Shown here: in pieces, positions 33,840 through 36,614 of the stretch
Layout of the letters: the number at the start of each line of letters is the position of its first letter
Numbering within the stretch: position 1 is the first letter of the stretch
From: an uncultured archaeon
Lineage (GTDB): Archaea; Thermoplasmatota; Poseidoniia; MGIII; CG-Epi1
Length of the DNA stretch: 50,798 nucleotides
NCBI GenBank assembly: GCA_964634895.1
Contig: CAZWJS010000002.1
Location: 1-50,798, forward strand
Direction of reading: 5' to 3'
Position numbers and translations under genes: made by a program
The notes under the pieces: generated by a model
Databases searched by the model: none
Seen by the model: the letters and a program-made list of their open reading frames with translations, nothing else
What the model was told of the DNA's origin: nothing

Positions 33840-36614
33840 TCAACCGAAAACGCTTAGACCAGGAGAATCTACCATCTTTTCTAATGTAGCCGTTATTCCA
33901 TGGTTTGGACCTAAAACCTCTTGAGCCTTTAACATTAAACACTTAAGTTCATTTCTTTCTAATCCCTCAAGTGCAGGCATAATATTCGACTTAATTACAT
34001 CTTCTAACGCTCGGTCAAGATCATATTGTCCCCTAGAATTAAAAACAGTTAACATTGAGTCAATAATAACTGCTGGACCTATTTTTCTATAGGTTCTTAC
34101 ACCTCTTGCTACTTCATCATCCCTAGATTGTGGCAACTCTTCTTCCTCAAGGAAATTCATAAACTTGTTAAAAGCTTTGAACATAGTGCTATCATCATCA
34201 TAGAAATCAAACATTTCTTTAGCATACCAATCTTCATCTCCCTCTGGTCGCTCTGGCGCAATACCAAGTTTATTTAGCTTGTTGAATACAAATATAGGCA
34301 TACGTTTGTACTCATCATCTCTATTAGGTAAACCAATTTCAACAAAAGCAAAACGTCTCATTAATGCATGACCTACATTAAACAGAGTATTCTTATCCTG
34401 AGTATTCATGGTACCTATAATTCTAAACTCAGGTGGCATCATGAACGGAGCGCCTCCAGTTTCCTTTGCAGTAAGAAGTGCCTGCTTGTCCCTGTACTCA
34501 AACACTGTGAATAACTTACCAAAAGCTTCATCAATATTTGCCCTATTAAATTCATCAATAACAAGATAGTGTGGTTTACCATCTTCTTGCATAGTTTTCT
34601 CACAGCTCTTAGCTGCATCTGCCACATATCCATCCTTGAAATAGTATCCTCCAGAATCATCTGGAGAGATTCCCCCTATAACTTCAAAATTAGACCATTC
34701 AGCGTTTGCAGTTACAATTGTGTAATTAGGAATTGGACTACCATCCTTAGCTTCCTTAACACCACATATCTGACTTAGTAAAAGATTAGCAAGTGCTGTC
34801 TTACCCGTACCTGGGTCTCCGTACAACATTATATTTCTACCCGATTTCAAATGAGTAACTGTTTGATTGATTGTATCCTCTGTAGTAGAATAATATTTTG
34901 AAAGTTCCTCGTAATCTACATCATAATTTACCTTCATTGCCTTACGAATTTTCGGACTCTCGGCCAATTCATCTTTGAGATCCTTCTCAATATCTTCAAG
35001 ATAACCAACATCAACTCCGTAATTTTCATCCTCTGTTGGTTTAATATCTATAGTAGCTTCTGGAAACTCGGATAATAATCTGTCCATTGCATCCTCTAAA
35101 CTTATATCTCCCGAAGAAGCAATTTCAGTGGAATCACTACTAGTAGAATCCTCAGGTTCCTCTGGCTTAAAAGAAGAATCAAAGGGATCTGCAGGAGTAT
35201 TTGTCAATTGCATTTCCATCATTTTGTTCTTGAACTTCTCAGTGCCATATCTTATACCATACCAAACAGCACCACCAGCAACAGCTAAAGGAAGACCAAA
35301 CATGAGCCATTCCGAAGTGGACTCTGGTGAAGAAACATTCTTACCAGATAGAAGTGCTGGTGCAATCATAGTAGCAAATAAGGTACCAATTCCTGCAACG
35401 AACAAACCAAAATAGGCAAGACCTTCCATACTCTCTTCAGATTTTCTTTTACGGTAGAAAAGATATACTCCAATAAAAGCAACAGAAACTGAAAGAACTG
35501 TAAGTATAATATCTCCTTGCTCAAAATAAAAATTGGCACTATTACGTACCAAATTCCAAACTACTACTACAAACTGTAAAGAAAGGCCAATTAAAATCAT
35601 GAAGAAGTATTTTGCTTCTTCCATATCCTTAAGCCGTACAGTTTGTAAAATGTAACCGGCAACTCCCAAAAGAAGCAGAAACATACCTGCTAATAAAATT
35701 AGCATTTCAACAGCTTGAAGATCTACATAAACATACTGAACACTTCCACCGACGGCAGTACATGCCTGCTCTATAGAGCTATCAAATTGATTTAGTGATT
35801 CACTACAAGAAAGCCAAGGACCTCTAACCCAATTGTGGTGTAAAGCTGCAAAAACAAGCGAACCTGCGCCAATAAAAGAATATATAGTACTTAATGGAGC
35901 TTCACTTATATCTTTGCCAGTAACTGCATAAAGAAAGACAATATATGAAACAATTATTATACCCAAACCAGCAGTAGCTCCTATCGTAGTCTCCACACCC
36001 TCTAAAGGTGATTCATTATTACCCATATAGAGATAGACTATACCCATAATAATAACCAAAAATATTAGAGGTGCCATGATATTACTATCACTTATCTTTC
36101 GACCTTGGTAGATAATACAAAGACCTAATAATGAAATTAAGCCAGTAAGTGTTTGATATTCATGAGTTTTTACACTAAAAGAAGAAGTATTCCAATTGGA
36201 ACTAAGAACTAAAGGACAACCATTATCATTACCTTTAGAGGAAGGATTACTCCATCCTGGGCAAGTTAATGGCTTATTATAATTTGCATATTCTTGTAAA
36301 TCTTCTTTGGTTACACCAGTGCCTACTTCGGTATCTGGAGTAGGGACATCTGCTGTTGTGTAATAAAGGACTAAACCGAGGAGAGCTACAGCCAAAAGAA
36401 ATTGAAGTGCAGGAACATAAAAACTAGATTTAGATTTAACTAGAGGAGCATGCTGTACCGGAGATGGAGAACCTGTTTCCTGACTAACTGGAGTTTCCAC
36501 TTGTGAAGGACCTACATCTTTTGCCCCAGCCATATTAACGCCACAAATATTACAAAATGGAGCATTATCTTCAACCTCAACAGCACATACTGGGCACTTT
36601 TTCATTGGTGCCAC
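33840..36614 (-). CDS. Polytopic membrane protein with an N-terminal zinc ribbon and a C-terminal McrB-family AAA+ (GTPase-type) domain
   Basis: 924 aa. CPVC-x10-CNIC (36540-36596). About 10 hydrophobic helices (residues 65-455). Walker A GDPGTGKT (34797-34820), then LVIDEFNRANIDEAFGKLF, IIGTMNTQDKN and ALMRRFAFVEI, which match the McrB signatures. GTG 36614 or ATG 36605 are both possible starts. Confidence 0.75.
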   Translation of the reverse strand: MAPMKKCPVCAVEVEDNAPFCNICGVNMAGAKDVGPSQVETPVSQETGSPSPVQHAPLVKSKSSFYVPALQFLLAVALLGLVLYYTTADVPTPDTEVGTGVTKEDLQEYANYNKPLTCPGWSNPSSKGNDNGCPLVLSSNWNTSSFSVKTHEYQTLTGLISLLGLCIIYQGRKISDSNIMAPLIFLVIIMGIVYLYMGNNESPLEGVETTIGATAGLGIIIVSYIVFLYAVTGKDISEAPLSTIYSFIGAGSLVFAALHHNWVRGPWLSCSESLNQFDSSIEQACTAVGGSVQYVYVDLQAVEMLILLAGMFLLLLGVAGYILQTVRLKDMEEAKYFFMILIGLSLQFVVVVWNLVRNSANFYFEQGDIILTVLSVSVAFIGVYLFYRKRKSEESMEGLAYFGLFVAGIGTLFATMIAPALLSGKNVSSPESTSEWLMFGLPLAVAGGAVWYGIRYGTEKFKNKMMEMQLTNTPADPFDSSFKPEEPEDSTSSDSTEIASSGDISLEDAMDRLLSEFPEATIDIKPTEDENYGVDVGYLEDIEKDLKDELAESPKIRKAMKVNYDVDYEELSKYYSTTEDTINQTVTHLKSGRNIMLYGDPGTGKTALANLLLSQICGVKEAKDGSPIPNYTIVTANAEWSNFEVIGGISPDDSGGYYFKDGYVADAAKSCEKTMQEDGKPHYLVIDEFNRANIDEAFGKLFTVFEYRDKQALLTAKETGGAPFMMPPEFRIIGTMNTQDKNTLFNVGHALMRRFAFVEIGLPNRDDEYKRMPIFVFNKLNKLGIAPERPEGDEDWYAKEMFDFYDDDSTMFKAFNKFMNFLEEEELPQSRDDEVARGVRTYRKIGPAVIIDSMLTVFNSRGQYDLDRALEDVIKSNIMPALEGLERNELKCLMLKAQEVLGPNHGITATLEKMVDSPGLSVFG

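What the first reader, a model, noticed from the sequence alone, without database searches (positions are those of the whole stretch)
35250..36596. N-terminus of the McrB-like protein: C4 zinc ribbon, about 10 TM helices and cysteine pairs confined to predicted outside loops
Seen in sequence: CPVC-x10-CNIC at residues 7-24. About 10 hydrophobic segments follow, for example FYVPALQFLLAVALLGLVLYY, LTGLISLLGLCIIY, APLIFLVIIMGIVYLYM, GLGIIIVSYIVFLYAV, IYSFIGAGSLVFAAL, MLILLAGMFLLLLGVAGYIL, FFMILIGLSLQFVVVVW, IILTVLSVSVAFIGVYLFY, YFGLFVAGIGTLFATMIAPALL and LMFGLPLAVAGGAVWYGI. Inference: with the zinc ribbon and the AAA+ domain both cytoplasmic (even TM count), the two long loops at residues 86-152 and 260-298 face outward. 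Each of these loops contains exactly one Cys pair (C118/C133 and C270/C285). That pattern would fit disulfide-stabilised extracellular loops, meaning a surface-exposed sensor face coupled to a cytoplasmic motor.
Basis: inference. Interest (0 to 1): 0.6.

Follow-up and report, generated by a model that had tools for sequence, protein, structure and literature searches.

The report
Membrane domain of archaeal McrB motor
In Marine Group III archaea, a restriction-enzyme-type GTP motor (McrB) carries a zinc ribbon and an otherwise unknown ten-helix membrane domain in place of its usual DNA-reading head. The outward-facing loops of that domain vary fast and hold cysteines only in pairs, so a defence-type motor appears to have been wired to the cell surface.

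Summary
Residues 7-24 form a CxxC-x10-CxxC zinc ribbon. Ten membrane helices follow, by hydropathy and by an AlphaFold2 model. C118/C133 and C270/C285 lie in the two long loops, which the positive-inside rule places outside.

In 104 family sequences every predicted outside loop holds 0, 2 or 4 cysteines, never an odd number. The short cytoplasmic loops hold none. Pairs are gained and lost as pairs, and the genome encodes VKOR.

The membrane domain has no sequence relative among 1.84 billion representative proteins and no convincing fold match in the PDB. It is not a fused transporter.

The C-terminal half is a true McrB-type GTPase. The next gene is McrC-like by fold.

The pair sits at one fixed locus between GAPDH and a GINS-like gene in nearly all Marine Group III genomes. 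It was found nowhere else, including viral contigs. A second paralogue has no McrC-like partner. One genus has cleanly lost all three genes.

The motor is almost invariant (dN/dS about 0.02). The outside loops evolve fastest (about 0.4).

Best reading: a lineage-fixed, membrane-embedded derivative of McrBC in which the membrane domain is the input module. What it senses is unknown. This scan has already reported the family from other MGIII genomes.

The parts
33840..36614 (-). Whole gene (924 aa from the GTG; the likely true start is the ATG at 36605). Architecture: zinc ribbon, 10-TM domain, linker, McrB-type GTPase.
   Evidence: ORF and translation. AAA_5 4.8e-19. McrB NF008457 5.6e-17, below its equivalog cut-off. 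Start codon.
36543..36596 (-). C4 zinc ribbon, residues 7-24 (CPVC-x10-CNIC); predicted cytoplasmic.
   Evidence: All four Cys are invariant in paralogues A and B. Pfam Zn_Ribbon_1 scores 18.5 bits, below its cut-off of 25. Basic residues precede TM1.
36360..36422 (-). TM1 (residues 65-85), running N-in to out.
   Evidence: Hydropathy 2.28. AF2 helix 63-84 in M4 numbering, pLDDT 85-89. It is 75-96% identical among A orthologues of family f1.
36159..36359 (-). Outside loop 1 (residues 86-152) with Cys pair C118/C133. Motif: P-x-x-C-P-x-W ... G-C-P.
   Evidence: The pair is invariant in the 26 A-type sequences of genera g1 and g3. It also aligns in paralogue B. It is absent in family-f2 orthologues, which have a short loop. 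The loop is 7-46% identical across the family, the fastest-evolving part.
35841..36158 (-). TM2-TM5 (residues 153-258) with short loops. The TM3-TM4 outside loop (198-212) takes Cys-pair-bearing insertions in some orthologues.
   Evidence: AF2 helices. Insertions 'KIC..x8-9..C'.
35709..35840 (-). Outside loop 5 (residues 259-302) with Cys pair C270/C285. The model shows a beta-hairpin plus a short helix.
   Evidence: Both Cys are present in A of genus g1 and in paralogue B. Both are absent, with a loop deletion, in g3 and f2. In L028 the pair (366/631) flanks an insertion of about 270 aa. Secondary structure.
35250..35708 (-). TM6-TM10 (residues 303-455). This is the best conserved part of the membrane domain. 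It includes the conserved cytoplasmic loops RLKDMEEAKYF (327-337) and FYRKRKSEESMEG (386-398), and polar residues inside helices (Q347, N354, D368, T372).
   Evidence: Invariant columns. Region identity 34-83%.
34935..35249 (-). Cytoplasmic linker (residues 456-560): a variable acidic stretch, then a conserved pre-AAA segment (DPFDS; LEDAMDRLLSEFPEATIDIKPT).
   Evidence: Alignment. Region identities and dN/dS.
33843..34934 (-). McrB-type AAA+ GTPase and C-terminal domain (residues 561-924). Motifs: Walker A GDPGTGKT, Walker B VIDEFNRAN, consensus loop MNTQDK, RRF.
   Evidence: E. coli McrB 6hz4_A 7.6e-18 and T. gammatolerans McrB 6ut3 2.5e-17, with the motifs aligned. dN/dS 0.023-0.027.
31724..33838 (-). 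McrC-like partner (704 aa), starting 1 nt after the stop codon. Parts: Ig-like beta-sandwich, helical stalk with an invariant basic tip, PD-(D/E)xK-fold domain, acidic tail, C-terminal helix.
   Evidence: It lies immediately downstream of paralogue A wherever both lie on one contig in g1, g3 and f2. Model. McrC matches: 7vsr_M Z 9.7, 6ut6_G Z 9.4, 6hz4_N Z 9.0 at rmsd 2.9 over 119 residues. Foldseek 6ut6_G E 2.1e-3. Junction sequence.

Best explanation
The stretch encodes the input end of a membrane-embedded derivative of McrBC that is fixed in Marine Group III archaea.

Shown:
- The protein begins with a cytoplasmic C4 zinc ribbon.
- It then crosses the membrane ten times (N-in, C-in) through a domain with no detectable relatives.
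- It ends in a complete McrB-type GTPase.
- The next gene is McrC-like by fold.
- The outward loops are the fastest-evolving part. They take insertions of up to about 270 residues and carry cysteines only in even numbers.
- The motor, and two cytoplasmic loops of the membrane domain, are nearly invariant.

Inferred:
- The paired cysteines form disulfides that staple the outside loops. VKOR is encoded in the genome.
- The protein assembles as a McrB-like hexamer, giving a roughly 60-helix membrane assembly.
- The invariant basic tip of the partner's helical stalk enters the ring, as McrC's finger does.
- The 10-TM module occupies the place of classical McrB's N-terminal target-reading domain. 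It would therefore be the module that sets when and where the GTPase and its partner act. The most likely trigger is an event at the cell surface or membrane, such as virus attachment or DNA entry, or an envelope or ligand signal.

Whether the output is still DNA cutting is open.
For: Topology:
- Ten helices by hydropathy and by AF2 (pLDDT 67, pTM 0.63).
- K+R density is 0.19 in predicted inside loops and 0.06 in outside loops.

Disulfide pattern:
- Even Cys counts in every outside loop of 104 sequences, and none in the short inside loops.
- Pairwise presence or absence and pairwise gains.
- VKOR at 86.8 bits in the same genome.

Orphan membrane domain:
- In a profile search of 1.84e9 proteins, only family members match beyond the zinc ribbon and TM1.
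- Foldseek best E 0.15.
- VIA-align best Z 11.2, generic four-helix bundles only.

McrB identity: motifs, which match those named in PMC7680126 and PMC11090510.

McrC-like partner. Its most conserved block, 182-219, lies at the end of a long helical hairpin.

Fixed core locus:
- Present in 41 of 45 genomes of the order and 0 of 106 in the sister families.
- Conserved synteny GAPDH, partner, motor, GINS-like, EndA.
- All 48 loci found among 185,579 species genomes are MGIII.
- None found in viral contigs.

Selection: dN/dS is 0.40 in outside loops, 0.10 in TM helices and 0.023 in the AAA+ domain. AAA+ identity is 72-97% where the neighbouring GAPDH is 47-49%.
Against: - No experiment exists, and no atomic coordinates were available to measure S-S distances.
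- The AF2 model is of middling confidence, and the loops are its weakest parts.
- Both loop cysteine pairs are missing in the family-f2 orthologues, and the second pair is missing in genus g3. Disulfides are therefore not essential to the fold.
- Nothing identifies a ligand. A purely anchoring role cannot be excluded.
- dS exceeds 1, so the dN/dS values are rough. No region exceeds 1, so diversifying selection is not shown.
- Sequences are related, so the 104 rows represent only about six independent events.
- The McrC match has Z 9-10, with large overall rmsd caused by domain orientation.
- Evidence of expression is only a few short metatranscriptome contigs on the conserved core.
Confidence: 0.6

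Rival explanations
1. It is still an ordinary antiviral restriction or abortive-infection system. It would be tethered to the membrane so that the GTPase and nuclease meet incoming viral DNA at its entry point. The variable outside loops would reflect an arms race with viruses that touch them.
For: - Homology to McrBC in both genes.
- E426 and E439 of the nuclease-like motif are invariant.
- The outside loops are hypervariable, with indels.
- The module is dispensable. Genus g2 lacks motor A, motor B and the partner, and in one g2 genome the GINS-like gene and GAPDH are directly adjacent at the syntenic site.
Against: - The distribution is near-universal, single-locus and vertical across a whole order, among housekeeping genes. 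It is neither patchy nor in a defence island.
- The motor's dN/dS of about 0.02 is more conserved than GAPDH next door.
- No full PADLOC system match.
- The second paralogue has no nuclease partner.
- The motif lysine K441 is Q in three of the four g3 orthologues and R in the f2 orthologues.
- No DNA-reading domain is present.
Confidence: 0.25
2. The 10-TM domain is only a membrane anchor and scaffold. The cysteine pairs merely stabilise exposed loops, and no signal crosses the membrane. The machine would act on a cytoplasmic or membrane-proximal substrate.
For: - No ligand-binding fold is recognisable in the loops.
- Both loop cysteine pairs can be lost.
- The outside loops tolerate large insertions and deletions.
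Against: - Ten helices are far more than an anchor needs. The single-TM FtsB-like fusions in the published census suffice for tethering.
- Polar residues inside helices (Q347, N354, D368, T372) and two cytoplasmic loops are invariant across both paralogues.
- TM helices have dN/dS of 0.10.
Confidence: 0.1
3. The membrane domain is a channel or transporter, and the McrB ring is its motor. One version would be uptake of extracellular DNA or another polymer, with the McrC-like protein processing it inside the cell.
For: - Conserved polar residues inside helices.
- A hexamer would enclose a large membrane assembly (inference from McrB hexamers, PMC7680126).
- A translocating motor and a nuclease-like partner sit on the cytoplasmic side.
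Against: - No similarity to any transporter or channel family by sequence or fold.
- No internal repeat of the kind common in transporters.
- In known McrBC structures the ring's pore is filled by McrC, not by substrate (PMC7680126).
Confidence: 0.05

Closest known systems
McrBC type IV restriction enzyme (E. coli K-12; Thermococcus gammatolerans; PDB 6hz4, 6ut6, 6ut3, 7vsr)
   Same: - AAA+ GTPase with Walker A, Walker B (DExNRAN), the MNxxD consensus loop and the trans arginine pair.
- The partner gene lies directly downstream, with a stalk and helical region plus a PD-(D/E)xK-fold domain.
- An N-terminal module joined to the motor by a flexible linker.
- T. gammatolerans McrC also has an N-terminal barrel-like scaffold domain (PMC7680126), comparable in position to the Ig-like domain here.
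   Different: - The N-terminal DNA-reading domain is replaced by a zinc ribbon and a 10-helix membrane domain.
- The partner's stalk is modelled as a helical hairpin, not a beta-sheet. It also carries a 150-aa acidic tail.
- The motif lysine is not conserved.
- The pair is a fixed core locus of one archaeal order, with a second paralogue that lacks a partner, rather than a patchy mobile defence gene.
- AAA+ identity to the nearest relatives outside MGIII in the phylum is at most 38%.
CoCoPALM and CoCoNuT-type McrBC variants (Bell et al. 2024, PMC11090510)
   Same: These are McrB GTPases fused to non-canonical N-terminal modules, including zinc ribbons and, in CoCoPALM, an FtsB-like transmembrane helix. 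Their McrC homologues carry coiled-coil insertions and sometimes inactivated nuclease folds.
   Different: Those systems have the shortened NxD motif and a single TM helix. This one has NxxD and a polytopic 10-TM domain. No polytopic fusion is mentioned in that census.
Membrane-coupled defence systems such as Zorya and Kiwa (from my own knowledge, not tested here)
   Same: The concept is the same: a membrane-embedded input component coupled to a cytoplasmic nucleic-acid-directed effector.
   Different: There is no sequence or fold relationship. No PADLOC hit was found to either. Those systems are patchily distributed, whereas this one is lineage-fixed.
Heme A synthase CtaA (PDB 6ied)
   Same: It is a helical-bundle membrane protein. 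From my own knowledge, it has cysteine pairs in its extracellular loops. It appeared in the fold list at Z 9.6, 210 residues aligned, rmsd 5.4.
   Different: The score is below the noise level for helical bundles (about 13). It has eight helices, not ten, and no shared motifs. It was considered and rejected as a relative.

Membership tests
McrB-type AAA+ GTPase | [quoted passage not shown] | tested here: met
   GDPGTGKT and VIDEFNRAN align to GPPGVGKT and IIDEINRAN of E. coli McrB. Both are invariant in the family.
McrB-type AAA+ GTPase | MNxxD(R) consensus loop replacing sensor I (PMC7680126, PMC11090510) | tested here: met
   MNTQDK at 736-741 aligns to MNTADR of E. coli McrB. N and D are invariant. 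The following Arg is Lys here.
McrB-type AAA+ GTPase | Trans-acting arginine pair after the consensus loop | tested here: met
   ALMRRFAF aligns to ALRRRFSF. R753 and R754 are invariant.
McrB-type AAA+ GTPase | GTP preference and hexamer formation | not testable with these tools
   This needs purified protein.
McrB-type AAA+ GTPase | N-terminal nucleic-acid-reading specificity domain | tested here: not met
   The N-terminal 455 residues are a zinc ribbon plus ten TM helices. No DNA-binding family was detected.
McrB equivalog (NCBIfam NF008457) | Whole-protein score above the curated cut-off | tested here: not met
   61.6 bits against a cut-off of 637. Only the core 577-761 matches.
McrC (partner gene) | PD-(D/E)xK-fold C-terminal domain | tested here: met
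   Model residues 347-517 against McrC 193-348 of 6hz4_N: Z 9.0, rmsd 2.9, 119 aligned.
McrC (partner gene) | N-terminal finger/DUF2357 region that enters the McrB ring | tested here: inconclusive
   No Pfam hit. 7vsr_M gives Z 9.7 over 235 residues and 6ut6_G gives Z 9.4 over 244 residues, spanning the helical region and the nuclease domain, with rmsd about 15. An invariant basic block at 182-219 lies at the tip of a helical hairpin.
McrC (partner gene) | Catalytic D ... (D/E)xK residues | tested here: inconclusive
   P425-E426 and E439 are invariant. K441 is Q in three of the four g3 orthologues and R in both f2 orthologues.
Zinc ribbon (Pfam PF13240) | Two CxxC knuckles; score above the gathering threshold | tested here: inconclusive
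   CxxC-x10-CxxC is invariant in both paralogues. The Pfam score is 18.5 bits against a cut-off of 25.
Known transporter, channel or receptor families | Sequence or fold match of the 10-TM domain | tested here: inconclusive
   - Nothing significant in Pfam or NCBIfam.
- Foldseek best E 0.15, TM-score at most 0.28.
- VIA-align best Z 11.2, on four-helix-bundle fragments only.
- The model's confidence is moderate.
Mobile anti-phage defence system | Match to a catalogued system; patchy distribution in defence islands | tested here: not met
   PADLOC gives only partial AAA+ hits. The pair is present at one syntenic housekeeping locus in 41 of 45 genomes of the order. It is absent from viral contigs.

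The most novel reading that the evidence does not exclude
A McrBC restriction machine has been rebuilt into a GTP-driven transmembrane signalling or gating complex. A hexamer of about 60 helices would use its disulfide-stapled, rapidly diversifying outer loops to detect an event at the cell surface, such as virus docking or extracellular DNA. It would pass that event through invariant cytoplasmic loops to the GTPase ring and its McrC-like partner. This would be a kind of membrane receptor-motor not described in any organism.
Probability: 0.25. Interest if true: 0.85.

Novelty: new variant of a known kind. Interest (0 to 1): 0.6.

Why it matters
McrB motors are known as soluble, DNA-guided parts of patchy antiviral systems. 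Here one is fused to a ten-helix membrane domain with no known relatives. It is kept at one locus, in two paralogues, by almost every member of an abundant but uncultured group of ocean archaea with genomes of about 1.2 Mb.

If the outer loops really read something at the cell surface, this would be the first McrB-type motor controlled from outside the cell. It would also be an example of a defence machine converted into a fixed cellular device.

The even-only cysteine pattern gives a concrete, testable handle on topology and on which face meets the environment.

Tried and rejected
- Known transporter or receptor fold for the TM domain: Foldseek against the PDB gave nothing (best E 0.15). VIA-align against 48,161 chains gave only generic helical bundles (best Z 11.2, below the helical noise level). 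Heme A synthase 6ied (Z 9.6, rmsd 5.4) was rejected as insignificant.
- Internal duplication of TM1-5 against TM6-10: hhalign probability 0.2.
- A 'TM domain with another C-terminus' candidate (G005:C39): it is only a paralogue-B gene cut by the contig end.
- Sequence-profile search of the partner against PDB sequences: no hit better than E 1.3.
- ESM Atlas: the membrane-domain part of the protein (residues 60-465) is not held. A homologue gave only scores below 0.9.
- Expression: four marine metatranscriptome runs gave only three or four short contigs (121-282 nt) on 34175-34744, the conserved AAA+ core. This is a weak hint, with no information on the rest of the operon.
- Nearest outgroup of the motor: the word-index search listed only family members among its best 120 of 428 hits. 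The phylum scan found only core matches of 38% identity or less.
- Absence in G012 is an assembly gap: EndA lies at a contig end.
- DsbA-like Thioredoxin_4 was not found in the genome, which is 92% complete.
- S-S distances could not be measured, because model coordinates are not exposed to scripts.
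Full report
**What is in the sequence**

The finding lies in a 924-codon ORF on the minus strand, window 33840..36614. Its range 35250-36596 corresponds exactly to residues 7-455.

- Cysteines lie at 7, 10, 21, 24, 118, 133, 166, 270, 285, 617, 671 and 892.
- The CPVC-x10-CNIC zinc-ribbon pattern is as described, and so are the two pairs C118/C133 and C270/C285.
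- C166 lies inside TM2.
- Hydropathy windows recover the ten hydrophobic segments.
- An AlphaFold2 model built on a 16-sequence alignment of both paralogues has mean pLDDT 67 and pTM 0.63. It gives ten long helices with the same boundaries.
- The likely true start is the ATG at 36605 (MKKCPVC), three codons inside the GTG. It is conserved in all homologues and lies about 29 nt downstream of a TATA-like element.

**Topology**

The helix count is even. The zinc ribbon and the AAA+ domain must both be cytoplasmic, so loops 86-152, 198-212, 259-302, 357-368 and 423-435 face outward.

The positive-inside rule agrees. In twelve representative sequences, K+R density is 0.19 in the predicted cytoplasmic short loops and 0.06 in the predicted outside short loops.

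**Cysteine pairs**

- In an alignment of 26 A-type sequences of genera g1 and g3, the four zinc-ribbon cysteines, C118 (C-P-x-W) and C133 (G-C-P) are invariant.
- C270 and C285 are both present in all twenty sequences of the closer tier. Both are absent, with a 22-residue loop deletion, in the six of the distant tier.
- Both pairs align in the second paralogue.
- The orthologues of the sister family (f2) have short loops and neither pair.
- Additional cysteines appear only as pairs inside loop insertions: in loop 1, in the TM3-4 loop, and four in a TM9-10 loop insertion of one paralogue-B gene.
- In one paralogue-B gene the second pair flanks an insertion of about 270 residues.
- Across 104 non-identical sequences, every predicted outside loop has 0, 2 or 4 cysteines and no short cytoplasmic loop has any. 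Cysteines in TM helices occur in odd as well as even numbers, mostly singly.

The rows are related, so this amounts to roughly six independent events, all preserving parity. The genome encodes a VKOR homologue above Pfam's cut-off (86.8 bits). From established knowledge, VKOR is an oxidase that drives extracytoplasmic disulfide formation in many prokaryotes. Disulfide-stapled outside loops are therefore well supported, though not proven. I could not measure S-S distances in the model.

**What the membrane domain is**

- Pfam and NCBIfam give nothing significant over residues 60-460.
- A profile of the N-terminal region was searched against 1.84 billion representative proteins. Beyond the zinc ribbon and TM1 it matches only the family's own members. 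Every weaker hit covers only profile positions 1 to about 100.
- Foldseek against the PDB finds nothing (best E 0.15, TM-score at most 0.28).
- VIA-align against 48,161 chains finds only generic four-helix bundles on either half (best Z 11.2, below the level expected for helical proteins).
- There is no internal repeat.

At present resolution the domain is an orphan.

Within the domain, TM1 and TM6-10 are best conserved. The invariant positions are two cytoplasmic loops (RLKDMEEAKYF 327-337 and FYRKRK.E.SMEG 386-398) and polar residues inside helices (Q347, N354, D368, T372).

**The rest of the protein and its partner**

The C-terminal half matches E. coli McrB (7.6e-18) and T. gammatolerans McrB (2.5e-17). 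Walker A, Walker B, the MNxxD consensus loop (MNTQDK) and the arginine pair all align. These are the features that the literature uses to define McrB (PMC7680126, PMC11090510).

The next gene (31724..33838, 704 aa) starts one base after the stop codon. It has no Pfam, PADLOC or NCBIfam hit. Its model shows these parts:

- an Ig-like beta-sandwich (1-95);
- a long helical region (100-366);
- an alpha/beta domain (370-547);
- a disordered acidic tail;
- a short conserved C-terminal helix.

McrC chains are its best multi-domain structural matches. 7vsr_M gives Z 9.7 over 235 residues. 6ut6_G gives Z 9.4 over 244 residues, with Foldseek E 2.1e-3. 6hz4_N gives Z 9.0, rmsd 2.9 over 119 residues, for the nuclease domain.

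Its most conserved block (182-219, rich in invariant Arg and Lys) lies at the far end of a long helical hairpin. That is where a ring-entering finger tip would be. This last point is inference.

The nuclease-like motif keeps P425-E426 and E439. K441 is Q in three of the four g3 orthologues and R in both f2 orthologues, so nuclease activity is uncertain.

**Distribution and evolution**

- The motor is found in 41 of 45 species genomes of its own order and in none of 106 sampled from the two sister families of the class.
- A scan of 185,579 species genomes found 48 loci. Those whose record title names a group below phylum level are labelled Marine Group III or Poseidoniia/Poseidoniales, and two are labelled Thalassarchaeaceae.
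- None was found in viral contigs.
- Outside the order, the best AAA+ matches in the phylum are at most 38% identical and patchy.
- Most genomes hold two paralogues. Type A is the window's gene. Type B is about 1,000-1,300 aa. In this genome it is on contig C7 and is 49% identical over residues 158-923.
- The McrC-like gene is single-copy and lies directly downstream of type A wherever both are on one contig.
- Type B stands alone. It is divergent from a membrane-anchored coiled-coil protein with a GreA/GreB C-terminal domain.
- The neighbourhood GAPDH, partner, motor A, GINS-like, tRNA-intron endonuclease is conserved across the order.
- Genus g2 has no A, no B and no partner. In one of its genomes the GINS-like gene and GAPDH are directly adjacent, which is a clean absence at the syntenic site. 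The three genes are therefore lost together and are dispensable.
- Region by region, the outside loops are the least conserved part (7-46% identity). The AAA+ core is 72-97% identical, even to paralogue B and to family f2, while the neighbouring GAPDH is only 47-49% identical between genera.
- Pairwise dN/dS among twelve g1 orthologues is about 0.40 for outside loops (maximum 0.71), 0.10 for TM helices and 0.023-0.027 for the motor. dS is above 1, so these values are rough.

**Interpretation**

Shown:
- a zinc ribbon, an orphan 10-TM domain with N-in/C-in topology, even-only cysteines in variable outside loops, a bona fide McrB-type GTPase and a McrC-like partner;
- a fixed, vertically inherited locus in Marine Group III.

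Inferred:
- disulfides in the outside loops;
- a hexameric assembly;
- the partner's finger entering the ring;
- a role for the membrane domain as the input module. It sits where classical McrB carries its target-reading domain, on a flexible linker.

A plain defence reading is weakened by the core-gene behaviour. It is not excluded, given the dispensability in one genus and the fast-evolving outer loops.

**Literature and earlier work**

Literature searches found no description of a polytopic-membrane McrB. The McrBC census mentions only single-helix FtsB-like fusions.

This scan has already reported the same family from other MGIII genomes, with concordant conclusions. This report adds the cysteine-parity analysis, VKOR, the region-wise selection profile and the clean deletion in one genus.

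Noticed in passing
L002 514-3591 (G000:C7, minus) and L002 3712-4326; L024 842-3211 and 3319-6384: The same genome holds a second paralogue (1025 aa) with zinc ribbon, acidic linker, 10 TM helices and McrB GTPase, but no McrC-like neighbour. It is divergently paired with a membrane-anchored coiled-coil protein of about 790 aa that ends in a GreA/GreB C-terminal domain (Pfam 1.5e-10). The pairing is conserved in at least three genomes.
   Followed up: partly
L024 3319-6384, L002 514-3591 (outside loop 1 of paralogue B): Between the two loop-1 cysteines, paralogue B carries a motif of the form T-D-x-N-x-N-G-x-x-D-x-x-E-R-x-G-C. It resembles an EF-hand or dockerin-type calcium-binding loop. Paralogue A keeps only N-D-x-(D/N)-G-C-P. 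A calcium site would fit an outside (seawater-facing) location.
   Followed up: no
L036 3376-5647 (G034:C22): In a genus that lacks both motor paralogues and the partner, the GINS-like gene and GAPDH are separated by only 87 bp. This is a clean absence of the two-gene operon at the syntenic site.
   Followed up: yes
L085 (G000:C21:2411-2803): The genome encodes a VKOR-family protein (86.8 bits, 162-aa frame). It is a candidate oxidase for extracytoplasmic disulfides. No DsbA-like Thioredoxin_4 protein was found.
   Followed up: partly
window 32516-33295 (partner residues 182-441): The partner's most conserved block is a basic stretch (residues 182-219) at the tip of a long helical hairpin. In its nuclease-like motif P-E ... 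E-x-K, the lysine is replaced by Q or R in some orthologues.
   Followed up: partly
window 31724-32176: After a 130-aa disordered acidic tail, the partner ends in a short conserved helix (SVSIEQLRKKM). The helix is retained even in the much longer family-f2 versions. It may be a docking peptide.
   Followed up: no
window 36686-38786: A GINS/Sld5-like gene (weak Pfam hit, 0.0019), a tRNA-intron endonuclease and a 237-aa protein with a weak DUF460 hit form a co-directional string. The string is divergent from the motor gene and conserved across the order.
   Followed up: partly
homologues P0044, P0017, P0352: Some database copies of these archaeal genes are labelled SAR86 cluster bacterium or Candidatus Marinimicrobia bacterium. 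They are probably mis-binned contigs.
   Followed up: no
L028 (G030:C10) and L029 (G033:C70): Some paralogue-B genes reach about 1,270-1,300 aa through an insertion of about 270 residues in the TM5-TM6 outside loop, bracketed by the conserved cysteine pair. The inserted domain was not analysed.
   Followed up: no
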